A stretch of DNA of 64,000 bases, from assembly GCA_905178155.1 (NCBI GenBank), contig CAJINV010000011.1, forward strand, positions 581,982 to 645,981. The letters are read 5' to 3'. Position 1 is the stretch's first letter; each line of letters starts with the position of its first letter. Positions 3,218-62,300 of the stretch are shown here, piece by piece. This DNA is from Amoebophrya sp. A120 (Eukaryota; Protista; Dinoflagellata). Below the pieces are notes generated by a model. The model had not been told where the DNA came from. It was given only the letters and a program-made list of their open reading frames with translations, and did not search any database. The translations under genes and the position numbers were made by a program.

Positions 3218-6200
3218 ACCACGTATCAGTTTCGCGGAGAATCCGCGGATTCCGCTCCTCAGCCGATGCTTCCGACTCGCTCTCCCCCACGAAATCGTCG
3301 TCATCCAGCGGCACTGCGTCCGCGTTTCCAGAAATGCCGTCTGGGTGGTCATCGTCCTCCATCGGCACCACATCCGCGCAGCTACCGGCGGTGCCCGAGG
3401 TCTCGTCGGGCTGGTTTGTCCCGCCCGCGCCGTCGGAACAGCGGCCATTCGCGGACTCATCCTCCTCTCTCTCCTCGCCATCACTGTCGTCGCCATCTAT
3501 GCCTTGCTCAGATGTTACAATCTCGAACGTTTACAATTATAAAAATCCGGATTTGTGCTGCTAGAAGAACTTCTCGTCAGCAATCACAAACACAATTCGA
3601 CCTTACTGTGACACAGCAAGGTCAGATTGTGATTCCGCGTGACAGGTGCTAGAGCGGCCAACCACGTGAGAATTCTGTTCTGGTGAAATTTGTGGATGCA
3701 AAAAATACAAGACTCTCTATGTTCCTCATGCTGTTCTTCATCCAAGGTAAATTCCAGACTCTATTGCAACGTTTGAGATTGTAACACCTGACAAGGTCAT
3801 ACGGTCGCTGACGCTTTCTTCCTGCTCGTCCTCCGCTGGGGAAGGTTCCTCAAAGAGTCCGTCCACAGAAAACGAGAGGTGCTCGAAAGTACGGTTCTCG
3901 CAGGCAGCGAGCTGCTCAGTCGGCGCGTGCAGTGACTCGCACCAGCTAGAGGCTTCGTCAAAGTGAAGTTTCAGCAGCTGCTGCCCTTCGGGAGTCCGGG
4001 TCGCCTGCACAAGCTGGACTAGGGTGCGGAGCTCGCTGACGCATGCCTCCGCTTCCGATCTGGTAGCAACACCAGGCACGCGGAACTTGCGCTCGCGAAG
4101 TCGGTTGGCCACGTAGACTGCTAATTTGTCTGCTTCATCAGCACCACCATCTGCCTGCTCAACCTTGATTTGGATGGCGTCCGCCTCCGGGTCGGGAGCC
4201 GCGTCCCCCGGAAAGACAACCCGCACGTCGGCATCGAGCAGTCCAAACGCGCCCAGCGAGGCGTTTCCTCGCGCAGTAGATTTTTGCACCCCCTGAATCT
4301 GAAGCGAGAGGAAGGTGCCGGAAATGGTGTCTACTTTGAAAATAGCAGCGATGTGCTTCTGCTTGAACTCGAAGCGCGGTTTGACGGAGAACGGATCGAG
4401 CCGCGGCAACTTGGGTAGCTCCCCAATTTTAAGGCCAAGTCCACTCCACACCGGCGTCAAGTTTTCGCTTCTCCACAAACACTTCTGGTCGTAGATGAGG
4501 TGATGCCGTTTGTGATACTCTTCATGCATTGCAAACATGTCTTGGTCTGGAACACAGTAACTGGTGATGCTACGTCTACACCCTGCAAGAATCTGTGTTA
4601 CATGTCTGCCAGCAGTTGTCCACTTTTGACCAAGTTGAGAGGGAGTTTCTCACGCATGACAGGCATGATAGAGGTCGCACAGAATCTGTCATGCCAGGTC
4701 CTGCATTGCAGACCTCATGGGTCACGGAAAATCTGCATGACAAGCTTCCACACTGCCAGACCCAGACACGTTTGCATTTGATACTTTTGGTTCCACAGCA
4801 ACTTCTCCTTCTCGGAGGACACCTTGAGACTCAGTGAGCTAGTATCAAAAGGAAAAATCCCCCCGCCCCATATCGAAATGGAAATCTGTGACGCAGGATT
4901 TGTGTACACAAATTTGTCTTGCGGTGAAGGACTGCAGACAGATACAAAGTCCGGAACGGGGTGGCTTAGGGTAGGTACTTAGCATGGCAGACGTCTGCCC
5001 TAGTAGCGCAGCAGCGTTACAAATCGCCTGCGAAATGCAGCGGAAGCCGTGGCTTTGCTCTCTTGCAAGACAGACTCGATTTGTGACGACCACAAAGCAG
5101 CATCACAAATTTTGAAAAGCACGCCTTTTCGATATGGGGAGGGGGGATTTTTCGTCACAATAGCCAGACGGTAGCCCCCCCGCTGCTTCCATCTTTCCGG
5201 GGAGACTCACCGCGAACTCTCCCGCCAAAAGGTCAAGCTCACGAGAAAGCGCCATGTGGAGGGTGTGCAGCACGTAAAATTCTTTGCGTAGCGAAGGGAC
5301 GGAGTGGTAATGAAATCTAATATTTCCGGGAGTCGGAGGTGGAAATCCTCTGTCTACGCTGCGTTCTGCGAGTTAGTATGAATTTGTTTCGAAATTATTT
5401 TTTCCTCGTCCAAGGAACAATACTCAGCTTTTCACGTAACGAAGATAGTTAAGCGGATCTTTTTTACGAGCGACAGCACAAAAACAAAGACAATTGCACC
5501 TAAAAATCTGAAAAGATACCTGTGATGAGCTCGACCAGCAGCTGCCGTCCACTCGCAATCACCATTCCCCCTGCATTCACAACACAAAACTCCACGGCGG
5601 GTGCCAGAAGATGAGACTCCTTCGGCTGCACGAAGTCGGGGTTTTTCCAGCAGACACGGGCACCCATCCGTTCCATCGAAGCGCCGGACCACATTGCAAT
5701 AATCCGGTGCATGATCGAAGTGGAGGGAGCGGACTTCGTGCCACTGTCGGGTTTGATCTTTCGCGCTGCGTCGCAGATGCCCTTTACTTCACGCTTGTAG
5801 CTGCCGTGTATCCGCTGCAGATCGGAGATGATATAGTCCAGCGCATGGACATGCTTGTAGTAGCAGCGCTTTTTCGACTCCAGCAGCTCATCGTATTCGA
5901 CCAGTTTTTCCGCACGGTGGTATTCCTCGGCCGTGGACAAGGCTGCAGCGGTGTACTCAAGACACTTCCAAAGCCCCGGCTTATTCTTGAATGCGTCGTC
6001 GACACCTGCGATACAATTGCTCGTTGTGCGAGAAGATTCCGCCGGAAGAACTTGCCCTGCTCTCTCAGCAGCGGTCCCTTCATCTTCCTCGCCACCAGAT
6101 CTTGCCTGAAGATCCTCGTCGTGATGGCACGTAGATGGTACTACGTTTGTTGACTCAGCACTGCGGAACCAGTCATGTTCCAATCCGACGACAGCCGCAA

Positions 6201-6606
6201 GCTCCTCCGCCACCTGAAACGCGTCGAGGGTCCTCAAGGCCGCGGGCAAGATCGTCAGTACGGCACCAGGCTCCAGCAGGACAACCGACGGTGCGGCGCC
6301 GAATTCATGAGGGTCTGGTCCCTCGATAGCGCCGGGTAGTTCGTTCGAAGGAGGAGGACTGGAGGAAGATTCGCCGGAGGAAGATTCATCTTTGGAGGGC
6401 GCACTGGGGCGGACCGCACGCACCCTCTGCAGCAACTCGTCATATGCCGTACTCCCTGGCTCCCACCCCATCGCGGTTTCCAACGCAGATCGCGTGAAAA
6501 AGGCCCCTTCTTCAGGAACGGAGAAATGCCGGAGCTGCATGTCGGAAGCAGCCTGGGCGGCGGCGGTGGTAACGGAGTTTTTCACTTTTGAAGATGCCAT
6601 CTTCAT
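3218..6606 (-). CDS. Hypothetical protein A (multi-exon, acidic C-terminus; 3' end uncertain)
   Basis: ORFs 5500-6606 and 3738-4538. Removing introners joins LLWNQK|YHKRHH and SVSDR|DDSDGEE in frame. The link between 5500 and 5163 is assumed to be a canonical intron. Confidence 0.6.
3498..3801. mobile_element. Introner, family H (TIR TATG..TCAG.TGTTACAATCTC.AACG)
   Basis: TIRs; flanks ccatc/cggtc. Confidence 0.8.
4523..4783. mobile_element. Introner, family A (TIR TATCAAATGCAAA.ATGTCTGGGTCTGG)
   Basis: TIRs; left end CA instead of TA; flanks ctctt/ctttt. Confidence 0.8.
4843..5162. mobile_element. Introner, family D (TIR TATC...GGAAAAATCCCCC.CCCCATATC)
   Basis: TIRs; flanks gctag/gccag. 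Confidence 0.85.
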
Positions 6607-7583: not shown

Positions 7584-10500
7584 TTAACCGGTCGTATTTA
7601 TGTCCTCGTCCTCGAGATCAGAATCAGAATCGAAGAGCGTCGAACCGCGCGTCCGCGGCGTCCCGGAGCCAGTACTACTTGCCCAGCTATGATGCCTGCT
7701 GCCCCGGGACAACAACTTGCGACGAACCGCCGGATCTCCCGCTGGTCGTCCATGTTGTAGTTCTGGCTGCTGCCGAGAACCACGAGAAGCTCCTGCCGGT
7801 GGCGGGACGCGACAAATGCGCGCGCTTTGCAGCCCGGTCCGCAGGAGCCGCAGCAGCGTCCGAATTTCCGCCTTTGCAAACGGATCCGCGGTGTAGGCTG
7901 CGGCACAGTGGTCCAGTGGCGCTAGTGGTTCCGGAACGACCTTTACCGGCACATATGGAGGAGGCAAACCGGACGAGTAGGAGTGAAGCACTGTATGAAC
8001 TGCAAAAGTATCGTACTCGTATAGATGCATTTTTTCTCAGCATGAGAAATAAAATTTGTAATGCGGATTTACCTTAAGAAAGAAATTTGTAATGCATGAA
8101 TGCGATTAGTACGAGTACGATACTTTTGTACAGGATACACTGCGGCGCCGACCAACTCCGTCAGCACGTCGAATCGCAAGGCGGCGATGGACTCCTCCTC
8201 CGCCTCAGAAACCGCAAAGTTGACGACGGGGCGGCCGACCGCGTCCGTGCAGACGTCGGCTACCAGTGCGGCGAGTTCGCCGGCCAGCCGACATAGACTC
8301 CCCCCGCCATCCCACAACACCATCTTCGCCAGATTCGCCAGCGCCGTCCCCTGCGCCAGAAAGTACAGTCCCGTCTCGCGCGGCGCACAGCTCCCGAACA
8401 GCGGTTCCCCGAGCGCGAGGCGCACCAGCATTTCCTGAACCGCTTGCACCGCGAGCAGACCCGCGTGCGTGACAGAAGCACAGGCTGTGGTCGACAGAAA
8501 TTGTAACGGAGATGCTCCTGCTGGGCCAGCAGGCTGTTGCGCTGCAGCTTCTAGGATATTGATTCCGCCCTGCAAGGAGCGCGACAAAAACGTCGACGAC
8601 GCAGACGTTCCAGCATTGATTGTACCACTACTACCACCTGTTGTTCCACCTTCGATCACCGCGGCGGCTGCTGCTGAGAAGGCACTCGCACCCGTCATCG
8701 CCGCAGCGCCCGCACACGGCCCGCTGCGGATAAAGTCCGCCAACGTGTCGCGCGCCATCTGCAGCTGCTGCAGTGGCTCGAGAAAGGTCGCCGACGGACG
8801 CACGTGGGGAGCGCGGACGGGGCGCACCCGGAGACACTGCACGGCGAAGACGCGCAATGTCCAAGCGAGGAGTTGCCCGTACTTGTTTTTCCGCCCGCAC
8901 AAACTTTTCAAAGCGTCCTCGGTCACGAACGCCAGCGCGAGATTGCGCAGCAACGCCAGCGCGAGCCCGAGCCGCGCCAGGTCGTCGTCGGACACCCCCT
9001 TTTCGTTCCCCCGCAAACCAGAGTACGTCGTGTCGTGCAGGAACCCGATTGCGTTCGCGAGAACCACCAGCTGTGCGGCCCACCGCGCCGCCCGCAAGCA
9101 CGAGGCCGAGATTCTGCCGATGTGTCGGGTGCACTCCCCCAGCCGATGTTGAGCTATCAAATGTAAAAGTGTCTGGGTCTGGAAACTTGTGATGCTGTGT
9201 GGCGTATCATGAGGAGGCGACAATTGCTGGCTCAGCATGATAAGTTTTTGAGCTTCTAGAGGTTGCCTATTCTGCATGACAAACTACGTTTCTGCATGAC
9301 AGAAAAGTAGGGCTCTTTGGTAATGTGCATGACAGATTTAAGAATCACGCCAGACAAGCATGACAAACTTGCATTCTTCCAGACCCAGACATTTTTACAT
9401 TTGATATGAACGTGTGCCGCTCGACTGGAATTCATCTCCGCCGTCTCATCGGCTCCTGGTCCTCGCGGCGGACCCGCAGATGAAGTACCGCTGCTACTGA
9501 TTTCACGTGCAAATCGCCGCAACCGCTCGACGCGGAACAGTTTTGCGAGCGCGCGGCCGCAAGTTGCACCGGCCCAGCGGATATCAAATGCAAATACGTC
9601 TGGGTCCTCTGGAACAAAGCAACTTGTCATGCTAAATCTGAATCATGGAAAATAAATCTGTGTTGCATGATTACCGAATAAAGTTGTCCACTTTTGACAT
9701 AATCGAGAGGCAGTTTCTCATGCAGGAGAGGCATGATAGAGCTCTCACAGAATCTGTCATGCTATGTCCTAAATACCAGACCTCATGGGTCATGGAGAAC
9801 CTGCATGACAAGTCTGGCATTCTTCCAGACCCAGATCGATATTTGCATTTGATAGCGGAGGCACTGCGGAACCACTACTCCCGGCGCTCGGCTGGGAGTA
9901 GTCCTAACCCAAGAAGGTGGTTGTTCCCCGCCGTCTACGACTCTGTCGACCAGAGTCAGGAATTGCGCAAGCAGGTGGTTGGCTTGCTGGTCTACGGAGC
10001 TGTTCTTGTTCGACCTTGCAGTTACTCTACCTCGTCGCGAGGTAGTACAACTAGTTGATGGCATCATCATCTCCACGGGATTCAGCGCCAGTATTTCCTC
10101 GGTCTCGGTTATCGCAAGAAAAAAGTGTTACAGTTACACACTGTGTTGCAAGACCGGCAACACAGACAACCTTTCTCGTGCAGAAAATGCTTCGGAGCCT
10201 CGTTTCCTTCCTGTTTTCCCTTATGATCTTCGCATTGCAAGTTTTCTCTGTCACACAGAGAAAATTTGTGATGCAGAAACTCCAACAAATGTGTAACTGT
10301 AACACTTTTTTCTCGTGATATCGGTCCGGCACACAGGACACCGGCCCTGGTACGTCCGCGCTCGCCGCATCTGCGAATAGCACTTCCCGTGAATAAAATG
10401 TCCACACGGCCACAGACCGAAGCTGATGCGGCTTGATGTTTGTCCTGCTGGGTCTTGATGTTCCCGGACACATACAGGCTCCAGACAGATCGGGCACGAG

Positions 10501-11095
10501 ACTCCTTCTGGTGCTGATGTCGCCGCATAATAGTTCGGTCCGGTTCGTTGGTTCGATGCTGCATGACCTGGTCTAGTACCTCTTCCTGCAGATGACGAAC
10601 TGGTGCTGCCCGTGCTTTTTGTACTAGACCAACTGCTGCTGCTGCTGCTGCCGTGCGATTCACCTTCTACCTCGCCGGCGCTGTTCTGCAGGTCTACTAC
10701 ACACGTGAGAAACGCGCTTAGTTGCCGCGATTTCTCCCGCGAAAAAACCGACTGCCCGGACGGAGCGTCGGTTTTGTTTCCTCGAGAATTATTTCGTGGT
10801 CCTCTCCCCCCTGCTGCCCCACCTCCGGACGCCGACCGGAGAAAGGATCTGCGCTTGGCTTCCGCAAAAAGCAGAGTGTGACTGGAGGTCCTCGACGCCC
10901 CAAATGAAGGGCGTGGGACACCACGAGGACCACCTGGCGGGGTCGTGTCCCCCAGTCGTTCCTCCACTGCTCCCAGCAGCTCCTCCACGACGTGCTGCAG
11001 TCGGATCGTAAAAAATGCCGCGCACCAAACCGCAATTCCAGCCAGGGAAGTGAGGCGAGAAAGAAACATTTGCTTGTGATTTCGTCCTGGCATCA
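7584..11095 (-). CDS. RING-H2 (C3H2C3) zinc-finger protein, putative E3 ubiquitin ligase; 4 introners
   Basis: CPICLEP...WPCGHFIHGKC...CPVCR at about 10325-10500. All four junctions are in frame (RT E|TEE, CLR|WAG, HVQ|HRL, AAV|LHS). Start codon uncertain. Confidence 0.8.
7994..8137. mobile_element. Introner, family F (TIR TAT....GCAAAAGTATCGTACTCGT)
   Basis: TIRs; perfect TSD cactg. Confidence 0.9.
9155..9406. mobile_element. Introner, family A
   Basis: TIRs; flanks tgagc/tgaac. Confidence 0.9.
9582..9854. mobile_element. Introner, family A
   Basis: TIRs; perfect TSD gcgga. Confidence 0.9.
10110..10320. mobile_element. Introner, family E (TIR TATC.C.AGAAAAAAGTGTTACAGTTACACA)
   Basis: TIRs; perfect TSD tcggt. 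Confidence 0.9.
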
Positions 11096-11991
11096 TCAAC
11101 CGTTTGCTGCGATCTTCAAAAATAAAGTGGAACTCTGACTGCAACTATCCACCCGGAGCCGAAGTGAGTAGTCAGGCTGTATCTAAACTACTTACATTAA
11201 AGCAAAACCAACAAAATTTCTGTGCATAGTATCAAGAAGTCAGCAGCTGCCCCGCCGCAGCAGAAGCATTATCAGAAGAGTATAGCTCTATGAACTGCAC
11301 GAAGAAAGAACTGTCACTGACAAATATTGCCCCGATCCGAATCTTTCAAAAAATGCTGCAGCTCGCCGAAAGAAGTTGCCTTTTGCTTGCTCTCTAGTCA
11401 CCAGCTGCAAGAAATGAATACAAGAAAAACGCTGCAAGGAACGAATGGTGTAGTTCGACGCACGCTGACGCTGATCTTGTATAGGAATATCTCACAGCTA
11501 TCATCTTCGCTTAAAAGTAGACAATGCGAATTGCTCTTCTCGTCAGGAAAAAAACGAGGCACCTCAGTTACATAATTGTCGATCTTTTGATCCTTCTTTC
11601 ATCCAGAGCCGCGGCTCACATCATGACGGAGTGCGATTCGTTACCGAGCTGAACGACTGTTCCACTCTCTTGCTGTTCCTGAACAAGTAAGCGCTAGGAC
11701 AAACACTACTTAACTACAGAGTGTGAGTCTGAGTGGGTAGTACTTTATCGGCAGATCAAACACTAGCTCCTTCCGGCACAGCTTCCAGATATTGCAAAAA
11801 AGTTTTGCTCTTTTTTTTTAAACTACAAATCACAAAGCTAAAACTGCGAGAAAGTTCTGTAACGACATCAGATCGGAAATGGTGGTGATCCAGGCTCGTC
11901 ATCACTGATTTTTCGCGGTTCCTGTTCGTGGTCCGCTCTTCTATCGGCACGATCGCAAATCAATGAGCAATGAAACGACAACTGCGCCTCG

Positions 11992-14900
11992 TCAGCCCCC
12001 CGCACGATGCCAGTCCCGCCACAAGACGGGGACTCCTTCTTCTTGATACGCTCGTTTACTGTGCGACGACGTTTGCAGCTGCGAATGCACTTCCTTCCAT
12101 ACCTGGTGACAGTCGTACCAAAGCTTGTGTTTCAACACTTCCATTTCACTTCGCAGTTCCATGGCCACGTCCACCGGTTTCCCGCCCGCCGCGGGATGGC
12201 ACACCCGCTGCCAAGTCGGAATGACCGCGCGCCGCTGGTAGCCGTAGCAGAACTCCAACAGCTGTAGCACCGCCTCGCACTCGGCCCAGGTGTGGGTGGT
12301 GGCCTCGAACACGATGAGTCGGGGCAGTGCGATCAGCCCCAGATTCTCGAACCGTTCCCACATGAGGGACCGCACGATGCCGTAATCGGCGTATCAAATG
12401 CAAATATCCCTGGACGTCTGGAAGAGTGCAAGATTTGTGACGCAGGTTTTCCATGACCCATGAGGTCTGGAATGCGAGACCCAGCATGACAGATGAGATT
12501 CTTTGAGGTCTCTATCATGCCTTTCTTGCATGAGAAACCCCCTCCCAACTTGGTCAAAACCGGACAGCTTTTGGCACTCACGCAACACAGGCTTTTGCAT
12601 CATTCAGATTTAGCATGACAAGTTCTACTTAATCTTCCAGACATACAGGGATTTTTGCATTTGATACGGCGTTGCAGCAGTCGATCTTAATGGTGTCGAT
12701 GAGCAGAACGCGCTGCAGGGTCTATCGAATGGAAAAATCCCCCCTCCCCATATCAAAACGGAATTTCTGATGCTGGATTTGCGTACACAAATCAGCTTTG
12801 TATTGCAGAGAGGCATTGCGGCCAGGTCCCCAGGCTATGTAGGGGCGTATAGGTCTAGTATTTGTTCAGCATTGCAAACGGCTCCCCTTTAGGCCCAACC
12901 GCATGATAAATTGCTTCCATAATGGGGCGGAAGCTTCTGTCCTTGTCTTCTTGCAATACAAGTGTGATTTGTGACCTCAAATCCGCAACACAAATTTTCG
13001 GAAACATACCTGTTCAATATGGGGAGGGGGGATTTTTCCTTCTGATAGCGTCAGGATCTGGTGCAGGGACTCCACCGGGACCAGTTATCCTGTTTAAAAA
13101 CGCCCCCACCACACAGGTAGTTGTCATGCAATTCTGCATGCTGAAAATGTTTCCCATGCGTAGTCCCATGCGAAGCGCCCACTCGTCGCGTTTTGGAATT
13201 TGTGATGCTCCAACCAGCATAATAGGCCACGTCTGTGATGCTGCTGAAGCAACTAGCCAAACCGAACTACATTACGAGGCCAAACTTGTTATGCGCAATG
13301 CCCAAAGCTAGCTGATTTGTGCAGCAGATTCTCCATCTTGACTCTGGGGTGGAGGGGATGCTTTTATTCAGAATACCAGTTCGCGCTTCATCAGGTGCAG
13401 CAAGCCGTTGGAGGCGAGCACCTGCAGCAGGTAGTCGACCGGCTGCTCTATGCTCGTGCACGCGCACGCCCGCTCGCCCACGAACTGGCAGGTGCGGCAG
13501 TCGTACTGCCGATGTAGCCGGCACACTGTGTTTCCGCAGGTCCGCATGTGCTGCATCAGGTCCGGGTCGAGGCCGTAGAGGTAGCGGTAATGGTTTGCAT
13601 CAAAACTTCTAGTACTGGCCCGAGTGGGTCCTTTACTAGGTTTTCGCCTCTGCCACTCGTCCTTGCGCTTCCAGGCTCTCACCGCAGCAACCTGGATTTC
13701 ATCCGTGGGTTGGATCTTTACAAATATGCACCATAGGCATATTGTTTGACGATCACGACGAAGACGATCAGACATATTTATTATGAACAAGTTGCACAGG
13801 ATGAAAGTCGTGCAACGAAAAATGAAAAACAAGAACCCTCTTCTACTACGTCTCTCTCGCCAGATTCGGTCCGGTAGCTGAGCGGGAGGGGCGCGGCGAG
13901 TAGTTATCGTAAGGGAAAATCCCCCCTCCACATATCGAAAGGGTGCGTCTCAGAAAATTTGCAATGCTGATTTGTGGCCACAGATCGTTTCTGTCTTGCG
14001 CGAACGCAACTCCACAGTCTCCGCCGCGTTCTGCAGGCGGTTTGTGATGCTGGTGGCCCTACAGACTAGACGTTTGCCATGCGCAGCGCCTAGCCCAAAA
14101 CATCTCTACGCAGTCTTGATATAGGCCTGCAGTCCTCTCCAGCAAGACAAATCTGATTTATTGTGTATGCAAATCCAGCATCAGAAACCTCGTTGCGATA
14201 TGGGGAGGGGAAATTTTTCCATTTGATAGCAGGTCCCGCCCCGGCTCGGATACAAACGAGCTTTGTTCCTCCGGAATGTCGGACACCTGCAGCGAGTCGG
14301 GCGTGGCGTCCTCTGCTGAAAAAGTAAGCACCTGTTGCTCGACTGCGCAGGGACCACTTGGCCTTGTGTTCGTGTTCGTCCCGGGGTGCCCACCACTGTG
14401 GGGGTTCCTGGAGGTGGTGCTTGTCGTTTGCTCCTGCTTGATGGCACTGAAAACGTCATAAATTTTCCAACCGTCTACTTCCTCGACAACGAAGCCTGCT
14501 TCCGTCTGGATCTGGCCGCTGCTCCTATTGGTTATGACTTGCACTTGCTCCTCGCTTGCTCCTTCAAAAATATTACCATCGCGTGCCGGTGGTCGTGTCT
14601 CTGTCTTCTTCGCCACATGATCTTCCCGTAGTTCCCGCTGCAAAGGGACCGGAGCCTCCTCGTTGTATACCACTTGTTCATCTCCGATGCTGCTGGTGAC
14701 AAAGACAACATCGTCGTCGTCATAATTTTTATCCTTGCGGCGGTGGGCGGCCACCTGCTCGCCCGCAAGTTCCTCCTCTTCTTCCCACACTTTCCCGGTC
14801 TCCCGGTAGTAGAGCCACGAGAGAAAGTCCGGATTCGTGCAGTCAGAATCGCGGACCAGACGCAACTGCTCTCCCTCGGACTTGTCCGAGAACCATCCCT

Positions 14901-15819
14901 GCTCCCACCTCCAGTACTGCACCACCCAGCTGGCCAGGTACTTTCGGTGCTCCTCGTCCTTGATTTTCCGCTCCCCGCGCCCCGTGAGCCGCGTTTTGAC
15001 TACTTTTTGCAACTTCGTCAGGTTGCCCGACTCTTCGGGCAGCGAGTCGAGGTTCTGTGTCCCAGGAAAGAACTGCAACTGCTTCATCACTCTTCTTTGT
15101 TTTGCAAGATCTGCACCACAACCTTTTTCCACATGACACGGAAACTTTGCCGTGCGCGCTTCCGCCCAAGTGAAATATTAAACACAGTGGAAGATAGATC
15201 AAGTGTTTATTTGCAGGTGTAGCAAGACAAAAAAGTTTTGCGTTTCAAATTTTGCATCACAAGTAAGTTCACAGTGAAACGGTTTCTATTTTCCTGCGAT
15301 ATTCTGCTGGATGGCGTCAATGCTGATCCCCGTGGCGGTCGGCAACCCCAGCCACTCCTCGCAGCCCTTGTATAAACTTGCGCATTTCGAGGAGAGGAAG
15401 TACGCATTGCTGTCCCCGTCCCGGTCAAGGTCCTCAGGGAAGCAGGCCTGCGCGAAGCTCTGGTAGTACGACGCACCCACCTCCACGAAGTCCCGATACT
15501 CCGGGAGAACCACCAACGCGGGGTCGTCGAGATGCTTCCGTACCAAATCCTGAAAAAACAGCGCCACGGCGTTCAGGGTCAGCAGCTTGTACCTGCGGTA
15601 GTCGAGGCTGGTAACCTGGTCGATTTTTGCCAGCTGCTCCAACTGCTTAAACCTTGGAATCACCAAGTAATCCCGCATCGACAAGGTCCCGCGTTTATCC
15701 GCCGGCAGGTCGCGCTTCAAAGGCCGCATGCCCCAAAAGCAGTGGTTCAGCTCGATCACCCGCTCTCGTCTCCGGACGGCGGGAGCTCTTGCTCTTGGTG
15801 GATGCGAGAAGTCCGTCAT
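11992..15819 (-). CDS. FkbM-family (Methyltransf_21)-like SAM-dependent methyltransferase with long insertions
   Basis: N-terminal FVEVGAS motif. Reconstructed C-terminal LLIDTIKIDCCNA|DYGIVRSL...PRLIVFE resembles FkbM IDxxKIDxEGxE...PxIxxE. The junction near 15110-15300 is not resolved. Confidence 0.6.
12392..12666. mobile_element. Introner, family A
   Basis: TIRs; perfect TSD cggcg. Confidence 0.9.
12723..13047. mobile_element. Introner, family D
   Basis: TIRs; flanks gggtc/gcgtc. Confidence 0.9.
13086..13375. mobile_element. Introner, family B (TIR TATCCTGAGTAAAAACGTCCCCACCCC)
   Basis: TIRs; perfect TSD ccagt. Confidence 0.85.
13905..14228. mobile_element. Introner, family D
   Basis: TIRs; flanks gtagt/gcagg. 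Confidence 0.85.
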
Positions 15820-16767
15820 TATCTCGCGGTAGTAAATCTATTTGTCGCGGGATGTATGTACTTATGTAGCCTTTATCGGGTCGACGTGCGGCTTGTGGTG
15901 GCGAAGGCTCGTGGCTGTCTCACATCGTCGTGAACAGCAAATGGCTGTCATGATTTGAAACTCACAGTATGTAAGTACTCTTCACACTTTGCAATTTTAT
16001 ACCTTTTTGATTTTTCAATCCTCAACGCGGCCACCATTTCTATTCTATTCTGAGATTTTGCCAGCAGGCGATGCCCATTTTGACGAAGAATGAACTCGCC
16101 GGAAGATCATGTTGAGTCTGAAGATCATGGTCAGCAAAAGAGACGCGTCTCCCGAATATGAATTTCGAAAAGAAAAACACGTGAGCCAAGAAAAGACAGT
16201 GTCAACGACAAGGAAGAGCCACTACCAAATCGACCGCGGGCAAATAGATACGATCGGATCAGAAGAAGAACGTGAACTTCCAGTACTCGGTCCTCCGTGA
16301 AGATCTTCGTATTGTTTCAAACTCGATAGAATCGTGATCCTTTTTCCTTCATAAGAATCTTCCTTCTTGCTTTTCTTACGACGTTCAGCCCAGAGAGGCG
16401 CAGCAAAAGCGGTGCGAATGTTGAACGGAGGAACATTTTTTTCGCACAGAGGAACAATAGAGTGACGCCGACGACGTGTGGTCGTGTACAAGAACGTAGC
16501 GTCCTGACCGTACTATGTGGTCAACAAGAACCCAGGATTTAGTACTTACTCACGAGTCTCTGCGTTAAGGGCAAGAACGGTCATCTCCGTTCTGTCTGCT
16601 TCTCCGTTTTGTTCTCTTGTTTCGGTTTTAAGTATGTTGTTCAGCAACCAAGCATGTCACAGTCACAGTCTGCATCTTCAAGCCTGCGCAACATGAGAAT
16701 GAGTCACAGTCACTTATATAATGCCGCACTTCTATCCATCTACTTCTCCCAGCGCTGGTACTCCTCC

Positions 16768-52800: not shown

Positions 52801-55800
52801 GTTTAGCAAGCGCAGCCGCATCACAAAGCCATCTGCTCATCCTCTTTGCAGCATTACAGAGTCCAAAACACGATTGCAAACGCCTCTCATGGGGATGCGC
52901 GTTACAAATTTTCCTGTGACTGCAAATCTGCATGACAACTATGGGGTTGGAATATAGTGGCCGGGAGATGATGGTGATGGCACTTTGGTGTCCGCCTGAC
53001 CCACCCGCCCTGCGTCTCAAGCCATCTGCGGCCATGGCACAAAGGGGGGGCAAAGTGCGTCGCATTTTGTTTAGCATGACAACTATGGGGTGGGGACGTT
53101 TTTACTCAGGATACTGTGTTGCGATGAAGGCAGCGTTTGCGGAGAAGTACGGGGTAATATGCGAAGAAAAAAGTGTTACAGTTACTTACAAACTCTGATG
53201 CAAGACCAGCAAGAGAGATAACCTCTGTCGTGCAGGAAATGCTTTCCAGCCTCATTTCATGCGTGTTCTTTTCCCTTATCGTCTGCGCATTACAAGTTTT
53301 CTTCGCTACGCGGTAGAGCGACTTCGTGATGCTGAAATTGCAACGAATGTGGAACTGTAACACTTTTTTCCTGTGATAGGTAAATGCAAGACCCTACTGC
53401 GATGAAAAGACGAAGGCGGCGATCGAGAAATTACAGCTGCTGCCGCAGAAGGTATAAAAGGGATCATATATTTTTTCAGTGCTGAATGAAGATGCTAGGT
53501 ATAAAAGCTATGCTCTAATTTCTGCTATTCAAAATTTTTTAAAAATCTCACTGCAGTGTTTGCGAATCAATGCTATTTTTTTACCTGCACAAAAAGAAAC
53601 CCAGGTTCCCCTCCCTCTCATGCGCCTTCTCCAGAACCTCTTTGTCTCCCCGGAGCGCGAGCTGGAGACCCAAAATTCCGCCAAGCTCATCAAGTCCCGG
53701 CACGTGCGGCACTCGCAGCGGGACAAGACCTATCGCGGTCTGTACAGCGCGCTGCAAGCCGCGGTGGAATCGTGCGTGGTCGCTCCGGAAGACGATGTGA
53801 TTGACGACCCGATCGAGTCCAGACAAAATCGGCTCCCGCAACTCCACCTCCGCGACGGGAAGCACATCCAACTCTCCGCCTGCGTGCGAGGCGAGGAGCG
53901 GACGGAGTTTTGGCTTTCTGGATTTCTGAAATACCCGTATTTAAACCGGGGGTACAAACTGGACGAGGAAAAACTATGCATTGCAAAGGTATGATCGTAC
54001 TAGTATAAATCGCATGACAAATTTCCTCAGCGTGAGAAATGTAATGCGGTTTTCACTTGACAAAAAAATTTGTAATGCATGACAGCGATTGCTACGAGTG
54101 CGATACTTTTGCACAGGATAAGAGCCGTGGATCAACAATTGTCCGGTGTTTTGGGCGTGCCGGGACACCCGGAACGTGCCCCACACGAACGGCAGGTTCG
54201 AATACTTCCTCTACTTTGACGGCCACCGGTACTGCATCCAAGCGGCGAACAAACTCCACGACGTGCAGGCGGCGCGGCAAACGTACCCCCTAGCGGAACT
54301 GGTCACCACCGATCTCCCCTGGTGGGCGCCCCGCACGCAGTGGCGGGAGCTTCTGGGGGAAAGGTTGCCGACGAAGAAGGTGGAGGCGAAGGATTTCGAT
54401 GCAAAGCCGGTGGAGGTCACGGCGACAGCAGTTCTTGGAGGAAGACAAAATGCTGAAAGAACACAAAAATCTTCACACAGAACCACCGGCTCCTGTACAA
54501 CACAACAACACGATAGTAGGTTCGATGTTTACGTCAACTGGGACTGCTTTCTCGAAGTTCTGGAGGCGGAAGAGGAGGAAAATTTCGAATTGAACAAAGA
54601 CCTGGCATGCATCCAGCTCGCGGCCGCCTCTGATTTTGCGAAGGACGTTCTGCAGAAGGTACGGGACGGCTTGGGGAAACTACGCACGATCGCGTTAGCG
54701 CAACACGACTGGGACGAGATCTCGAAAAGGGCGCAGGACCGCCTCATCAAAATGTTCATCCCGATGGACGAACAAAATAAATCGCGAGTAGCAGCGGACG
54801 AGGTTCATCTTGCACCAGAAATAATAAACATTAATGAAAATAAGAACAAAAACCGCAGCACAAGCACAACTTCAAGCTGCCTCGAGGACCCTGCGTTAAT
54901 ATTACTGCAGAAGTCCACCTTGGCCAAGTTCCGTTCCACCGACGTTCAGCAGCAGCTCGCGAACTTCGTCGCCGAGCTATTGAGAGGAAAAATCCCCCCT
55001 CCCCATATCGAAAAGGTATGTTTCCGAAAATTTGTCTTGCTGATTTGAGACCACAAATCACGTTTGTCTTGCAAGAAGACAACTCCACAGGCTCTGCCGC
55101 ATCATGCAGGCGGTTTGTGATGCTGTTGGGCCTACACCATAGACGTTTCTCATGCTAAGCGCCTAGGCCACAACTTCTCTACTCAGGCTTGGCAGGAGCC
55201 TGCAGTCCTCTACTGCAAGACACACGTGATTCGTGTACGCAAATTCAGCATCAGAAACTTCCGTTTGATATGGGAAGGGGGGATTTTTCCTTGTGATGCG
55301 AGCAGCTTGCGCGGAAAAAGCTGTGGCTGGACCGGGGAAGCAATACAGATGAAGAAGATGATCCGGATAAAATGCTACTCGGCGACGCGTATGGATTGCA
55401 AATATGTCTGGGTCTGGAAGAGTGGAACTTGTAATGCTGTCTGCGGATTCTAAAAATATCTGTGTTGCATGAGCAGCAAGAGGACTCAGCTTTTGGCACG
55501 CGGAGAGGGCGTGTCTCATGCGTAATTAGCATCAAGAGGCTCTCAAAATCAAAAAATCTGTGTTGCTAGCACCAGCATCACAGACCTCACGGGTCATGCA
55601 AAATGTGCATGACAAGCCCCGACTCTTCCAGACCCAGACATTTTTGCAGTTGATACCGCGGTCTTGCGGTTCTTCACGGCGCTGCAGTGCTTGAAGTCGA
55701 AGCATAGTGTCCACGAAACGGAGGCGATCGACCAGTATCTGTGGAGCGAGGAGTGTCTCGGGAAGAGCTTGTACAAGGACCTCCGGTACACCATTGGGCA

Positions 55801-58234
55801 CAGTTTGGTGCAGTCGGAACAGAAGTACACCACGCTGACAAAGTTTATCGCAAGCAAAAAGTGTTACTGTTACACGCATAGCCTTCTACTATGCAGGGAA
55901 AGCAAGACAGACAACCTCTGTCATGCCGGATATGCATACACACCTTGTTTCGTACGTGTTTTATTCCGGTAGGATTTCTGCAACGCAAGTTTTCTGCCTC
56001 AGGCAGAGAACAAATTTGTGTTGCTGAATTGGCAACAAATGTGTAACTGTCAACACTTTTTCCGTGTGACAAAGTTTCTCGCGACCTTGCTGGAGAGGGA
56101 AAAGCTCCGGCTGCCCCCTGCCTTAGCGGATGTGGCCGCGGGGGTGAAGACGACCGAGGAGTTGCCGTTGCCCACCGTTCTATTACACTGCATCAACGCG
56201 GCACACTTCACGAGCTTGTTGGAACGGAAGAAGGGCTTCGGGAAGGAGAAAAGGGGATTGCTGGACCTCGATTATGGCCGCCGCGCGGGGGAGAAGAAAG
56301 ACGAAGAAATATTAAACGACGTCCTCCTTGGTGCATCGGAACCAGCTGCAAATGCAGGGTCGTTGAAAACAAGCACGCGGTCAAACTCAACATCCGTGAG
56401 GAGCAATAAGCTACTTGGAGAGCCGCGCGGTGGAGCAGGTCCTCCGGCTGCGAGTGCATCGACAAGTGTGGTTGAGCGACGTGGTGAACAAAAATCCGCA
56501 AGAAGCTGCTGCCCTGAGCATGATGGTGAATCGAATGAAGGCATCGTGAAGGGCGCGCTGGAGCTGGCAACGAAGATAAAGACTACGAATCACAATGCTA
56601 GTACGTGGAATTATAACGCGCAAGCAGGAACTACAGTGGCAAGCTACACGGAAGACGCAGTACAAAATTCGGCGCAACATCAAGAAGTAGACTCCACCCG
56701 CCGCCGCCGCACGTCGAGCTTGGAGGCAGCGGAGAAAAGCATACTCTCTAGCAGCGTGGGGACCACGCCGGTGAAAAAGCGCAATGCTTCTACTGCCGAA
56801 GAGGAAAAAATCAAGCGCGATGAGCAGAACGAAAGCGCGGCTGGAAGCGCTGGCGGAGCTGCTGCTTCGAGCTCAAGCAAGTGGCTGGCGAGTGTGCAGA
56901 ACCGGATGAGCAATAAGAGAAAAAGATCTTTGTCCAGCGAAAGCGAGAAGAGCTTCCAGCCGAAGGAACTTTCGTCGGCACTTCAGACGAAGGTTTTGGG
57001 TGCGCGGAAGTCCTCCCCGAAGTTCACCATTGAAGAAGGTCAGTCCTATCCCAGTGCAGCTTCGGAAAGCGACAGAGAAATAAAGCCAGTCAAGGAAAAG
57101 AAGAAAGTGAAATATTATGACAAATCCAAGAAAGAAAAAAAGAAGAAAAAAGCACGGAAGGAAAGAAAAGCGAACAGCGATGGTGAAAAAAGTGACGTCC
57201 TCGAGGAGGTCTCTTTTGACCAACGGCCCGGGCATCTCAAGCTCATGAAGGGCGTAACCCTCAAAGAGCAGAGAGGGAAAAAGATAGAGGAGCAGCGTGA
57301 GGGTGGTGCCCAATCGAAATCCACCTCCGCTACGGAAGGTGGTGCTAAAGCCTATCCCTTTTTCGCCGGTGCAGCAGCTGCAGCAAGAACGACGACTAAA
57401 TCTAATGTTGTCCTCCCGAAGAAGATTTCCCCCCGGCGACAGGCGCAATACGACCGCGACTACCAGGAATTACTACACCTCCGGGAGCAGAACCGCTGTG
57501 AGAATGCGGGCACCCGCCGCTTGGACGAGATTTACCAGGAAGAGAAGGAGGCGCGACAAAGGTTAGAATTGCAGAAGAAGGAAGAAGAGGCACAGAGGCG
57601 GAAGGCAGCACAGGAAGAGAAGTTGAAAAAACTGAGGTACGTCGAAAAGCTGCAGCAGAGCTACCAAAATAACGCGGGCGATGGGAAAATAAATGGGCTG
57701 CTGCTGGAAGAAGCTGGCGAGGCGAGATGTATTTCGCAGCGCAACCCCGGGATGCTGACGCAGAGGAACCCGGCGTCTCTCTCGCAGAGAATTGCAAATC
57801 CGCTGTTGTTAACCACGCCGTCGCCAGAAGTGAATGCAAAAAACACTACTGCGTGTTCTTCTACCGGGGTGGATTTCTATCGGAAATTCTGCCGCGGTGC
57901 GGCAGTGGATTATGGATTGCAAAAATGTCTGGGTGTGGATGATTGCAACTTGTCATGCTAAATCTGAATCAGGCAAAAAACTGTGTCGCATGGTTGCCAA
58001 AAGTTGTGCACCTCTGATCTAATCGAGAGGCAGTTTCTCATGCAGGATAGGCATTCGAAAGGTCCCACAGAATCTGTCATGCTATGTCCTACACACCAGA
58101 CCTCATGGGTCACGGAGAACCTGCATGACAAATCTGGCAATCTTCCAGACCCAGACATTTTTGCAAACCATATGGATCTGAAACCTGCAAAAGGGAAATG
58201 CATCCTCAAGCCAGGACCGAACGGCAGGAGGTAA
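49874..58234 (+). CDS. Large hypothetical protein with a Lys/Glu-rich C-terminal region; 12 introners plus one GT-AG intron
   Basis: Junctions checked are in frame (PKQE|GPWD, DH|VRL, HA|EFT, KLA|KGK, RSD|QVL, IC|VAMK, EEK|PWINNC, AVD|LKP...RR*). No recognisable domain; start uncertain. Confidence 0.7.
50034..50184. mobile_element. Introner, family F
   Basis: TIRs; perfect TSD ggagg. Confidence 0.9.
50247..50567. mobile_element. Introner, family D
   Basis: TIRs; perfect TSD ccacg. Confidence 0.9.
50601..50944. mobile_element. Introner, family B
   Basis: TIRs; flanks cacgc/cacgt. Confidence 0.85.
51329..51636. mobile_element. Introner, family B
   Basis: TIRs; perfect TSD tggcg. Confidence 0.85.
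52022..52191. mobile_element. Introner, family F
   Basis: TIRs; perfect TSD tctga. Confidence 0.85.
52691..53113. mobile_element. Introner, family B, with an internal insertion
   Basis: TIRs; perfect TSD ctgtg. Confidence 0.9.
53158..53378. mobile_element. Introner, family E
   Basis: TIRs; perfect TSD ggtaa. Confidence 0.9.
53975..54120. mobile_element. Introner, family F
   Basis: TIRs; flanks aaaac/agagc. Confidence 0.85.
54978..55298. mobile_element. Introner, family D
   Basis: TIRs; right end TG; perfect TSD cgagc. Confidence 0.9.
55390..55655. mobile_element. Introner, family A
   Basis: TIRs; flanks acgcg/ccgcg. Confidence 0.9.
55846..56071. mobile_element. Introner, family E
   Basis: TIRs; right end CA; perfect TSD aagtt. 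Confidence 0.9.
57911..58172. mobile_element. Introner, family A
   Basis: TIRs; perfect TSD tggat. Confidence 0.9.
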
Positions 58235-59357: not shown

Positions 59358-62300
59358 ATGTCTACTCCGGAGATCATTGGCCCCGCCGCTGGTGCTACAA
59401 CCCGGTCACAGGAGAACGAGGACTCGAAAATCCTCTGTGAGCCGGTTCCTGACGAGGAGGATGTGTCCACCGAAGTCCCCTCCCTGGTCCCCGACGAGGA
59501 CGAGCTTCCGCCGCTGCGGCGACGCACCAGCGAGTTTTCGCGGTCGATGTCCAAGGATTTTCCGGCGGTCACCGTGCATATTTTACCGGAGAAAGCGCAG
59601 ATATTTTCCCTCTTCGAGTGCCACGAGGTGTACACTATGGGGCGGGACATGCTAAACGAGCAGGCAGACAGAAGAGATAAAAAACCGAGTTCAACAACAA
59701 CATCTGGGCGGTCATCCTCGTCTTCCAAAGGCATAAGAACAACTTTGCAGCAACTCGGGAATTATCCTGTGCAAAAGTATCGTATTCGTATTGCAGTCAT
59801 GCATTACAAATCTTTTTCTTAGGGTAAATCCGCATTACAAATTTTATTTCTCATGCTGAGGAAATTTGTAATGCATTTATACGAGTGCGATACTTTTGGA
59901 GTTCATAGAAATCAGCTTTTAAGCCTGAGCAGGAGCGCCATGGAGCACCGGAGTAAGCTTCGGAATCTCTCTTATCAAATGTAAAAATGTCTGGGTCTGG
60001 AAGATTGCAACTTGTCATGCTGAATCTGGATCATGCAAAAATTTGTGTTGCATGATTACCAAAAGATGGCCACTTTTGACCAGTTTGGCAGCGAGTTTCT
60101 CATGCAGAATAGGCATGATAGACACCTCACAGCGTTTGTCATGCTAGGTGCTGCATTCCAGGCCCCATGGGTCATGGAAAAACTGCATCACAAATCTTGC
60201 ATTCTTCCAGACCCAGACATTTTTACAGTTGATATCTCTAGTCCCGATCAAAAGACCAGAGATAGCGCATCAAGCAGTACCGCCCTAAATTCAAGTACTG
60301 TCCCCGATGGACCCGGCTCCGGCACGACAAGCAGCAGTACGACCGCTACTACAGCTTCCACCTCGTTTCAGTTTCTGCACTACGCGCACTATTTCCGGGC
60401 GCATTTTCTCTCCTGTTCCGCGGTGTCCCACCCGTGCAAAACTATCATCACCGCGTTTCTGATCCTCCTCTACACGGTCATCGCCTACATTCCGTTCGGC
60501 GTGGGGAAAAAGTTCGTGACCACGATGACGCCCTACACGCTCCCCCCGATGATGGGATCGCTGGACGCGCGGATGTACGCATTCTGCAAATATGTCTTGG
60601 TCGGGAAGATGAGTGCGATACTTGTCCTATGCTGGTGTGGCATGACGCTGCGCTCTGTATTGCGTGGCCACGATGAAGAGCTCCTCCCGTCTGTCATGTA
60701 AGAACGCTGTTTCTCATGCGGGCTACGCAAGAACACAGAGCCACGGAAAAACCTGTCTTGCTTCGCGGTGCATTGCAGTGTGCTATGCTATTCGCTGACA
60801 TGCATTACAACTTTCCAGGCCCGGACATATTTGCACTCGATAGGATGTGCCGGGTGCGGGCGGAGTTGCTGAAGAACGCCCACGGGACGGTGTTGGACTT
60901 CGGCGCGGGGTCCGGTGTGTACATGAAGTACTGTTTTCCGAAAACGGAGAAAAACCAGTTCGGGCAGGACGGGAACAAGGCGAATTTCGTCCACAAGTAC
61001 ATCGCGCTCGAACCCAATTTGGAAATCGCCGCGCAGTTGAAGAGGCAGTCGGAGAAACTGATCCGCGAGTGCGAGGAGCTCCTGGGGCCGCAACGAGCGG
61101 TGTCCATGCCGGCGAAGGCGGTGTCCAGCATCCCGCCGGCTGGAAAAAGACTCGGAGTTGTCGCAGACGATATTTCGACCGGGGTTGCGAAAGTGGACAC
61201 CATCACATCATCTTCACCACCATCAGAGTTAGAAAGGGCAGCAGAAGGTGAAGGAGCGCATCTTCATGAGAAAAATAAATTTTCCATTCCACCGCGCAAG
61301 AGCTCGGACCCGGAGCTGTTTGGAGGTTCATTCGGAAGTCATTTTTTACCCTCGAGAAGAACCCTGCTGTCCGAAACGGAAACTCCCTCGTCCCCTACCT
61401 CTTCCGCCTGTTCACCGAAGCTGCCCAACGCGACGGCGCTCCGCCGCACCATCACCGAGAGCACCACGGCGAGCAGCACGGATTTTTCGCTTCCGAAACT
61501 CCAGAAACCCCGGCCAAGCTCATTCTCGGTTCAAACCGAGGATTTGTTTCCTACAACGCACGATGTCAGCGACGTAGAGGAGGAGGAGCCACTTTTGTTC
61601 CGGACGGATAGCGTTTCCTCGTGGAATAAAGTCACTAGTGGCCGGGGTGGCAGAAGTAGTCCACCCGCAGGAGCAGCTCCTGCAAGCCCGATCCAAGATC
61701 AGTACGGCATTCAAAAATCTAACAATCCGATGAAGCTCGAGCGGACGACGAGTGCTGTGAGTTCGTCGTCCACGACGATTCGAAGACGCGTTTCCACAAC
61801 GTCCAGCCGGGCGACGGCACCAGAAGACTACGCTCTGGACGACGAAATGGTGGCCGGCGGCGTGGACGAGAAGGAGGACTTCTACCCGCGAAAAGAACAA
61901 CATCAGCTCGATTTATTTGAAAACAGCAACAATGATGAAAACGTGCAAAACGACAAGAATTATGATCCGAGGGCGTACAATAGGAGTATGTTTGAGGAAA
62001 ATAAGAATATCAAATCCAACTCCAACACCTTCACTACCTCCCTCGGCACCTTTCCGCGCCGGAGGATGCTGAAACACATCCCGGAGGTCGAAGTTGTCAC
62101 GGAATACCTGCAAGAGTACGCGAAGCGGATCCCGGAGAACAGTATCGACTACATTTTACTGGGCAACGCGCTCTGCATGGTAGACGACGTGGAGAAAATT
62201 TTGCAAGATTTGAAACGGTTGCTCAAACCGGAGACGGGCCGGATTTTCTTCTCCGAGCACGTGGCGGCGCTCCCGCGGAACTCCTGGCGCCGGAAGCGCC

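What the first reader, a model, noticed from the sequence alone, without database searches (positions are those of the whole stretch)
3498..60842. Massive invasion of genes by TA...TA, 5-bp-TSD transposon-like non-canonical introns (61 elements, about 11 TIR families)
Seen: 61 elements with TIRs starting TA and ending TA, flanked by 5-bp direct repeats (about 39 perfect), 60 of them inside coding sequence. Deleting the element plus exactly one repeat copy restores the frame at every junction translated, including inside invariant ALDH motifs. Almost none can be read as GT-AG, GC-AG or AT-AC. Established: TIR plus TSD is the footprint of cut-and-paste DNA transposons, and non-canonical introner elements with inverted and direct repeats have been reported, as I recall, in Amoebophrya. 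Inference: non-autonomous MITEs that are removed precisely from the transcript by an uncharacterised machinery, coexisting with a normal spliceosome.
Basis: partly seen in the sequence, partly recalled or inferred. Interest (0 to 1): 0.92.

Follow-up and report, generated by a model that had tools for sequence, protein, structure and literature searches.

The report
Amoebophrya transposon introns, already published
The genes of this marine parasite are riddled with small transposon-like inserts that are cut cleanly out of its RNA without the usual splice signals; the phenomenon is real but was published in 2021, and what is added here is a likely fixed cut position.

Summary
Real, but known. 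I count 63 inverted-repeat elements (31% of the window), 41 with perfect 5-bp flanking repeats; shuffles give none. Removing element+5 nt opens all 8 gene models. The spliced ALDH is identical to an NCBI protein labelled Amoebophrya sp. A120. These are the A120 introners of Farhat et al. 2021: same TAT-N7-AAA ends, direct repeats and size. Probable-RNA contigs support element+5 removal for 21 of the 42 elements laid, with no deviating junction among those shown; a DNA-like run lacks the joints.

Additions not seen in the papers read: (1) the duplication is uniformly 5 bp (248 of 320 in a second assembly); (2) imperfect duplications fit one register only, intron = N+TAT…ATA+4 nt, the upper bound resting on one junction; (3) the first T never varies at the transcript-5′ end (0 vs 8 of 248); (4) GCAT[GCT]ACA is shared across families and absent outside. 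Best mechanism (inferred): MITEs spliced by a relaxed spliceosome guided by the hairpin. No transposase found.

The parts
1027..3217 (-). long introner (2191 bp; short-family ends plus large insert), TSD 5/5
3498..3801 (-). introner, TSD 3/5
4523..4783 (-). introner, TSD 4/5, transcript-3' end TG
4843..5162 (-). introner, TSD 4/5
7994..8137 (-). introner, TSD 5/5
9155..9406 (-). introner, TSD 4/5
9582..9854 (-). introner, TSD 5/5
10110..10320 (-). introner, TSD 5/5
12392..12666 (-). introner, TSD 5/5
12723..13047 (-). introner, TSD 4/5
13086..13375 (-). introner, TSD 5/5
13905..14228 (-). introner, TSD 3/5
15058..15301 (-). introner, TSD 5/5, transcript-3' end CA; found through relatives in a second assembly
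17057..17277 (-). introner, TSD 4/5, transcript-3' end CA
18150..18436 (-). introner, TSD 4/5
19830..20275 (-). introner, TSD 5/5
20696..20958 (-). introner, TSD 4/5, transcript-3' end TG
21021..21293 (-). introner, TSD 5/5 (reads AT-AC in register 4)
22854..23125 (-). introner, TSD 5/5
23367..23645 (-). introner, TSD 5/5
24278..26543 (-). long introner (2266 bp) holding a nested TIR element at 24752-26319, TSD 3/5
27998..28260 (-). introner, TSD 5/5
28318..28572 (-). introner, TSD 5/5
28628..28783 (-). introner, TSD 3/5
29587..29781 (-). introner, TSD 5/5
29821..29929 (-). shortest introner (109 bp), TSD 5/5
30313..30532 (-). introner, TSD 5/5
31003..31310 (-). introner, TSD 5/5
31907..32195 (-). 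introner, TSD 5/5
33167..33375 (-). introner, TSD 4/5 (mismatch at position 5: would test the register)
33884..34154 (-). introner, TSD 5/5
34363..34521 (-). introner, TSD 4/5
34708..34927 (-). introner, TSD 4/5
35273..35443 (-). introner, TSD 5/5
35551..35762 (-). introner, TSD 5/5
38067..38351 (-). decayed introner, TSD 2/5; RNA skip 290 = 285+5; cut after TSD position 2, 3 or 4
40639..40868 (-). introner in the ALDH 3' UTR, TSD 3/5; RNA skip 235; cut after position 4 or 5
41832..42019 (-). introner in ALDH, TSD 3/5; RNA skip 193; cut after position 3, 4 or 5
42063..42330 (-). introner in ALDH, TSD 5/5; RNA skip 273
42367..42558 (-). introner in ALDH, TSD 5/5; RNA skip 197
42668..42951 (-). 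introner 1-2 nt downstream of a canonical acceptor, TSD 3/5; RNA skip 849 = 289 + 560
42954..43513 (-). canonical GT-AG intron (560 nt) of ALDH
43611..43872 (-). introner in ALDH, TSD 5/5; RNA skip 267
44183..44365 (-). introner in ALDH, TSD 5/5; RNA skip 188
44404..44690 (-). introner inside the ELGGK motif, TSD 5/5; RNA skip 292
44913..45218 (-). introner in ALDH, TSD 5/5; RNA skip 311
45252..45475 (-). introner in ALDH, TSD 5/5; RNA skip 229
45535..45785 (-). introner inside the PWNFP motif, TSD 5/5; RNA support from contig length sum
45827..46055 (-). introner inside the HEPVG motif, TSD 5/5; RNA support from contig length sum
41741..46484 (-). host gene: aldehyde dehydrogenase, 484 aa, 11 introners and 1 canonical intron
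50034..50184 (+). introner, TSD 5/5 (reads GT-AG in register 4)
50247..50567 (+). introner, TSD 5/5
50601..50944 (+). introner, TSD 4/5 (mismatch at position 5: would test the register)
51329..51636 (+). introner, TSD 5/5
52022..52191 (+). introner, TSD 5/5; adjacent RNA contig pieces skip 175
52691..53113 (+). introner, TSD 5/5
53158..53378 (+). introner, TSD 5/5
53975..54120 (+). introner, TSD 3/5; an RNA contig piece resumes at 54125 (fits a cut after position 4 or 5; weak)
54978..55298 (+). introner, TSD 5/5, 3' end TG; RNA support from contig length sum
55390..55655 (+). introner, TSD 4/5; RNA support from contig length sum
55846..56071 (+). introner, TSD 5/5, 3' end CA; RNA support from contig length sum
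57911..58172 (+). introner, TSD 5/5; adjacent RNA contig pieces skip 267
59763..59907 (+). introner, TSD 4/5; RNA skip 150; upstream copy kept at position 2
59973..60234 (+). introner, TSD 5/5; RNA skip 267
60576..60842 (+). introner, TSD 5/5; RNA skip 272
918..6606 (-). host ORF (stop to stop, about 813 codons), 4 introners and an inferred canonical intron near 5366-5519
7584..11144 (-). host ORF with a RING finger (887 codons), 4 introners
11992..15837 (-). host ORF (about 735 codons), 5 introners and an inferred canonical intron near 13692-13849
16768..36514 (-). host ORF (about 4040 codons), 22 introners and an inferred canonical intron near 30611-30777
37940..39348 (-). host ORF (373 codons), 1 introner
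49874..58234 (+). host ORF (1662 aa), 12 introners and canonical intron 53452-53604; residues 231-1662 identical to P0090
59259..62482 (+). host ORF with a methyltransferase domain (845 codons), 3 introners

Best explanation
These 63 elements are the published introner elements of Amoebophrya sp. A120: non-coding inverted-repeat inserts with 5-bp duplications, removed from RNA as element plus 5 nt wherever a junction was seen, and likely spread as MITEs and excised by a relaxed spliceosome guided by their terminal hairpin. Shown: anatomy, frame restoration, RNA junctions for 21 elements, both orientations relative to transcripts, no preferred AG. Inferred: one transposase type with a 5-nt staggered cut mobilises all families, binding the TIR and the shared GCAT[GCT]ACA repeats. 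Inferred: the TIR stem brings the ends together, the 5' cut falls 1 nt before the stem (N|N-TAT read as a GTAT donor whose G is no longer needed) and the 3' cut falls 4 nt beyond the stem, so one TSD copy goes with the intron and insertion anywhere leaves the protein unchanged.
For: Identity: spliced ALDH equals P0001, labelled A120, at 484 of 484 residues; gene model residues 231-1662 equal P0090 across 8 elements. TAT-N7-AAA is at 89 of 124 ends and is the published A120 motif. Splicing: 14 listed joints, 2 adjacent-piece joints and 5 elements by length sums all equal element+5 in probable-RNA contigs; X7 shows depth 0 for the 11 such joints and holds elements in place. A 3' UTR copy is spliced too. 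Register: allowed cuts are {2,3,4}, {4,5}, {3,4,5}, {4,5}, {2-5} and, weakly, {4,5}, so only 4 fits all six; the retained copy switches side with gene strand. The first T deviates 0 times at the 5' end and 8 times at the 3' end of 248 elements, p=0.008. All 5 canonical donors in my models start GTA, 3 of them GTAT. Transposon footprint: 248 of 320 perfect 5-bp repeats, against 1 of 4 bp and 0 of 6 bp, in a second assembly; both orientations. A120 has a nearly complete spliceosome with U1 snRNA not detected.
Against: No lariat, branch point or spliceosome dependence was tested. The upper bound of the register rests on one decayed element (38067) that happens to start GT in register 4. Runs X1, X3 and X4 are only guessed to be RNA, come from one study as contigs, and most joints carry 'between: not known'. 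The protein identities may rest on the same RNA data. No transposase was found in 51 ORF or exon translations of the window and loci scanned, and Farhat et al. found none in A120. The strand caller for the second assembly was checked only on its training window (52 of 53). An invariant first T would also fit a cut directly at the TIR.
Confidence: 0.7

Rival explanations
1. Same elements, but removed by a separate structure-reading machinery (endonuclease plus ligase, or a Euglena-like pathway) beside a normal spliceosome.
For: Terminal dinucleotides are unconstrained: in register 4 donors are GT 21, CT 17, AT 13, TT 11 of 62, and acceptors are scattered. Elements work in both orientations. 58 of 60 short elements fold at z<-2. 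Five canonical GT-AG introns coexist. The Euglena precedent has an unknown machinery.
Against: The 5'-specific invariant T and the resemblance of N-TAT to the host's GTAT donors suit a spliceosomal donor. Fritillaria shows a spliceosome can adapt to non-GT-AG transposon introns. Hairpin folding follows trivially from selecting on TIRs.
Confidence: 0.25
2. The elements spread through an RNA intermediate (intron transposition or an integrase-like enzyme) rather than as MITEs of a classical DDE transposase.
For: No transposase was detected in A120 by Farhat et al.. One A120 introner family has TIRs with Copia/Gypsy-like ORFs. Five-base duplications are typical of LTR integrases (recalled).
Against: TIRs, a uniform 5-bp TSD and subterminal motifs in mirror arrangement are DNA-transposon hallmarks. 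16 of the 21 A120 rows I saw in the 2025 dataset are classed TIR DNA. hAT5 is a DNA-transposon precedent for 5-bp TSDs.
Confidence: 0.15
3. The elements are gene-killing insertions or assembly artefacts and are not spliced.
For: Low-depth unspliced contigs exist across 40639 and 42668.
Against: Spliced joints dominate in X1 (770.7 vs 44.7; 871.7 vs 18.7) and give an intact ALDH that is 55-75% identical to 11 homologs, with no gap at any of 11 junctions. A second assembly holds 320 elements with the same anatomy.
Confidence: 0.01

Closest known systems
Amoebophrya sp. A120 introner elements (Farhat et al. 2021, PMC7789003; 58 families in the 2025 survey, PMC12130899)
   Same: Same organism label, TAT-N7-AAA inverted repeats, 3-5 nt direct repeats (5 bp in their Fig. 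S19 legend), about 240-260 nt, non-canonical junctions, repeated families, MITE comparison.
   Different: No difference in kind. They describe DRs of variable length and an intron border that 'remains unknown'. Here the DR is uniformly 5 bp and the junctions fit one register; the 5'-only invariant T and the shared GCAT[GCT]ACA motif were not in the text I read (their figures were not visible).
Fritillaria borealis non-canonical transposon-derived introns (PMC11282704 section 6; PMC13326754 abstract)
   Same: TIR+TSD introns outside GT-AG at species-specific positions, attributed to an adapted spliceosome.
   Different: Those have preferred ends (AG-AC, AG-AT) and divergent U2AF paralogs. Here no acceptor dinucleotide is preferred and no such factor was examined.
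Euglena nonconventional introns (PMC12501133 abstract; PMC11282704 section 6)
   Same: Paired ends, repeat-flanked, non-canonical, fixed spacing between stem and junction, coexisting with GT-AG introns.
   Different: The Euglena signature N3CDG…CHG N5-6|R is not met here. Those introns are released as circles; the excised form here is unknown.
Symbiodinium, Aureococcus and Micromonas introners (PMC9860276 passages)
   Same: Non-autonomous DNA-transposon-like elements that create introns.
   Different: Those carry or co-opt canonical splice sites from element or TSD; here only 2 of 63 read canonical in register 4.
hAT5 DNA transposons (PMC12730594 passages)
   Same: 5-bp TSD; YA…TR termini and subterminal repeats are typical of hAT (recalled).
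   Different: No transposase is known for these elements, so the superfamily cannot be assigned.

Membership tests
Amoebophrya A120 introner elements | Host is Amoebophrya A120 | tested here: met
   Two window genes are identical to NCBI proteins labelled A120
Amoebophrya A120 introner elements | Inverted repeats at both intron ends starting TAT-N7-AAA | tested here: met
   89 of 124 ends; 52 of 62 elements at one end or both; definition
Amoebophrya A120 introner elements | Direct repeats of 3-5 nt at the junction | tested here: met
   41 of 63 perfect 5-mers, 54 of 63 at 4/5 or better
Amoebophrya A120 introner elements | RNA-supported non-canonical junctions | tested here: met
   21 of 42 elements laid; runs are guessed RNA
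Amoebophrya A120 introner elements | Repeated families | tested here: met
   9 multi-copy body families among 62 elements; 288 of 320 loci elements hit a window element, median best identity 81%
MITE (non-autonomous TIR transposon) | TIRs, constant-length TSD, short, non-coding | tested here: met
   median 262 bp; no Pfam hit in the long elements
MITE (non-autonomous TIR transposon) | Cognate autonomous element or transposase | not testable with these tools
   No whole genome held; none in the long copies examined
MITE (non-autonomous TIR transposon) | Empty orthologous sites or insertion polymorphism | tested here: inconclusive
   None of the 155 fetched loci overlaps the window's coding sequence. 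Homologous ALDH proteins lack inserts, but their genes were not seen
hAT5 | 5-bp TSD | tested here: met
hAT5 | hAT transposase | not testable with these tools
   No autonomous copy found; not filed as hAT5
Canonical U2/U12 intron | GT-AG, GC-AG or AT-AC ends | tested here: not met
   6 of 63 in any register, 2 in register 4
Spliceosomal intron (relaxed) | Lariat and snRNP dependence | not testable with these tools
   Contigs only. The candidate branch motif GCAT[GCT]ACA is not biased to the sense 3' end
Euglena nonconventional intron | 5'-N3CDG…CHG N5-6|R signature | tested here: not met
   Register 4: +4 is T in 182 of 185. Register 5: +6 is G in 6 of 185. Signature

The most novel reading that the evidence does not exclude
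A120 splices by geometry: the cut falls 1 nt before and 4 nt after a terminal RNA stem, needs only a U at intron position +2 and no AG, and works in either orientation. Every insertion of one 5-bp-TSD transposon system, all families sharing GCAT[GCT]ACA, is therefore a ready-made, protein-neutral intron. This would turn the 'variable' A120 borders into one rule.
Probability: 0.5. Interest if true: 0.65.

Novelty: already known. Interest (0 to 1): 0.3.

Why it matters
How Amoebophrya removes tens of thousands of non-GT-AG introns is an open question in the source paper. The elements themselves are not new. A single register with one invariant base would replace 'variable splice sites' by a testable rule, explain why genes tolerate such dense invasion, and allow the A120 intron borders to be re-annotated. 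It can be checked on existing RNA-seq reads.

Tried and rejected
Whole-genome search was impossible: no genome is held.

Branch-point role for GCAT[GCT]ACA: rejected. Sense copies near the 3' end are no better kept than mirror copies near the 5' end (112 vs 126 of 248 within 50 nt; 150 vs 173 within 100 nt, slightly the opposite way).

TSD supplying canonical sites: no clear bias. G at position 5 in 21 of 62 and 63 of 185; AG at positions 3-4 in 17 of 185, about what base composition gives.

Transposase in long copies: no Pfam hit. Known RNA families: 0 Rfam hits in the window. Viral contigs: 2 matches; L154 is a chance match inside a long phage-type ORF and neither locus holds a full element.

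Testing the register through annotated proteins: the search from the giant gene found nothing (limit 2000 aa), and P0090 starts downstream of element 50601. Raw-read run X11 laid only 116 partial reads, covering 3 of 30 bins, and X9 gave only element-to-element joints among those shown; both are uninformative. Elements without RNA cover are not counted for or against.

Earlier scan notes: none. Searches translated ALDH from a wrong start and were superseded. PMC6004678 had no 'hAT5' passage.

Full report
Observation. An inverted-repeat scan without a TA prior showed many 100-450 bp elements. Selecting TA..TA pairs on TIR score alone (>=12) gave 50 elements, 28 with a perfect 5-nt flanking repeat; 10 shuffles gave 0-3 elements each and no perfect repeat. 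Curation with an end library gave 62 elements, and relatives in a second assembly revealed one more at 15058-15301; no further hits remained in the masked window. The final set is 63 elements, 19,780 bp (31%), median 262 bp, 41 perfect TSDs and 54 at 4/5 or better. TIRs fall into 10-15 clusters.

Frames. Removing element+5 nt puts 41 of 62 junctions in ORFs >=1500 nt, against 12-14 for the other phases and at most 29 in 100 random-phase controls. This test fixes length only modulo 3. With 5 canonical GT-AG introns, all 8 gene models have one stop; one is about 4040 codons and holds 22 elements. The borders of three of these canonical introns are chosen among several that fit. Spliced ALDH (484 aa, 11 elements) is open only at +5 among +0, +3, +4, +5, +6 and +7. 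None of 11 homologs has a gap within 5 residues of any of the 11 junctions.

Identity. The ALDH model equals P0001 and residues 231-1662 of another model equal P0090, both labelled Amoebophrya sp. A120 by NCBI. Farhat et al. 2021 (PMC7789003; abstract, sections 10, 11, 12, 16, 32, passages and supplement legends read; figures not visible) report that over 60% of A120 introns are non-canonical. They also report 29,850 introner copies, inverted repeats starting TAT-N7-AAA, 3-5 nt direct repeats (5 bp in Fig. S19), U1 snRNA not detected, no transposase in A120, and an unknown border position. That motif is at 89 of 124 ends here. A 2025 survey (PMC12130899; passages, and 21 of 58 A120 rows of one supplement) lists 58 A120 families, 16 of the 21 seen classed TIR DNA. 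The finding is therefore known.

RNA. Thirteen runs were listed. On 27400-46600, 11 of the 15 joints shown come from probable-RNA contigs X1/X4; 10 equal element+5 and one (849) equals element+5 plus a 560-nt canonical intron. X7 has depth 0 for all 11 and carries elements in place; the other 4 rows are X7-only element-to-element joints, and 538 rows were not shown. Contig lengths (369 and 118 nt) add elements 45535 and 45827. On 49300-62700, 3 of 15 joints shown are exon-exon and equal element+5; 8 are X9-only and 4 are short-sided joints into elements; 77 were not shown. X4 pieces add 52022 and 57911 directly and 54978, 55390 and 55846 by sum (828 = 326+271+231). In total 21 of the 42 elements laid are supported, and none shown deviates. 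Limits: the runs are guessed RNA, contigs, from one study, and may be the data behind the annotation. Unspliced contigs exist at lower depth in X1 (44.7 vs 770.7; 18.7 vs 871.7) and at similar depth in X4 at 40639 (7 vs 8.2).

Register (my addition). Where the two TSD copies differ, the RNA shows how many bases (k) come from the transcript-upstream copy: 38067 k=2-4; 40639 k=4-5; 41832 k=3-5; 42668 k=4-5; 59763 k=2-5; 53975 k=4-5 (weak, from a piece start). Only k=4 fits all, and the side kept switches with gene strand. The intron would be N+TAT…ATA+NNNN. The bound k<=4 rests on 38067 alone, seen in X1 and X4 with contiguous pieces. In that register donors are GT 21, CT 17, AT 13, TT 11 of 62 and acceptors are scattered. 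Independently, the first T of the TIR deviates at 0 transcript-5' ends and 8 transcript-3' ends of 248 elements (window 0 vs 3, second assembly 0 vs 5; p=0.008); TIR positions 11-13 show no asymmetry. The 185 second-assembly strands were called with a codon model out of 297 elements. All five canonical donors start GTA and three GTAT. I infer that N-TAT is read as a donor whose +1 G is no longer required. Six literature searches showed no paper stating this register, but Farhat et al. note 4-nt repeats upstream of A120 IRs, and their figures and Roy et al. 2023 were not seen.

Mobility. A pattern scan gave 153 loci, all from JACKZZ01 contigs. They hold 320 elements: 248 with perfect 5-bp repeats, 1 with 4 bp and 0 with 6 bp; the closest pair is 97.7% identical. 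Family members lie in both orientations relative to transcripts (for example 23 vs 22). GCAT[GCT]ACA occurs 150 times in 59 of 62 elements and nowhere outside the 63, in mirror arrangement and often 40-50 nt from the ends. It is not sense-biased, so it is more likely a DNA-binding or pairing repeat than a branch point. The two long copies are short-family ends around inserts, with no Pfam hit. hAT5 is a precedent for 5-bp TSDs (PMC12730594 passages), but without a transposase no superfamily is assigned. Hairpins are strong (58 of 60 at z<-2; z -10.9 for 45535), as expected from selecting on TIRs.

Mechanism and rivals. Best: MITEs with a 5-nt staggered insertion, removed by a relaxed spliceosome positioned by the terminal stem. 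Fritillaria is a precedent (PMC11282704 section 6; PMC13326754 abstract). Rival: a separate structure-reading pathway as in Euglena (PMC12501133 abstract), whose sequence signature is not met here. Nothing here tests lariats or snRNP dependence. PMC9860276 and PMC12005148 were read as passages only.

Verdict. Observation confirmed, interpretation supported, novelty already known, interest 0.3. The single-register reading has probability about 0.5 and would merit about 0.65.

Noticed in passing
window 42664-43513: An introner sits 1-2 nt downstream of a canonical acceptor whose CAG is part of the TSD. The RNA junction (giving D399) needs a 1-2 nt micro-exon or ordered two-step splicing.
   Followed up: partly
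window 24752-26319: A different TIR element (ends TATAGTTGGGG…CCCCAACTATA, AACG-rich subterminal arrays, no 5-bp repeat, perhaps a TA duplication) is nested inside introner 24278-26543.
   Followed up: partly
window 1100-3150; L054:4584-5068: The insert in long introner 1027-3217 has AGAGGG/CCCTCT inverted arrays; about 490 bp of it is 87% identical to a stretch in the second assembly.
   Followed up: partly
window 1-543 and 6524-7067: A 550-bp duplication (92.7% identical) of the start and upstream region of the minus-strand gene.
   Followed up: no
window 40605-41740: The ALDH transcript has a 3' UTR of over 1.1 kb holding a spliced introner, so removal does not depend on coding context.
   Followed up: yes
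window 49874-51707: The reading frame extends 230 codons upstream of the annotated start of P0090, across 4 introners; the annotation may be truncated.
   Followed up: partly
window 47532-48600: Intergenic tandem and degenerate 31/62-bp repeats (CAAAAGTTGCAAAATCTGGCA-like) between the divergent genes; possibly another mobile element.
   Followed up: no
window 43063-43390: A 13-bp tandem array inside the canonical ALDH intron.
   Followed up: no
window 37089-37276 and 37458-37575: Repeats in the 3' region of the 37940-39348 gene: very deep contigs with variants in X1 and an 80% match in L065.
   Followed up: no
window 3082-46484 vs 49874-63965: Six gene models in a row on the minus strand, then plus-strand genes, fitting the unidirectional clusters reported for Amoebophrya.
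   Followed up: no
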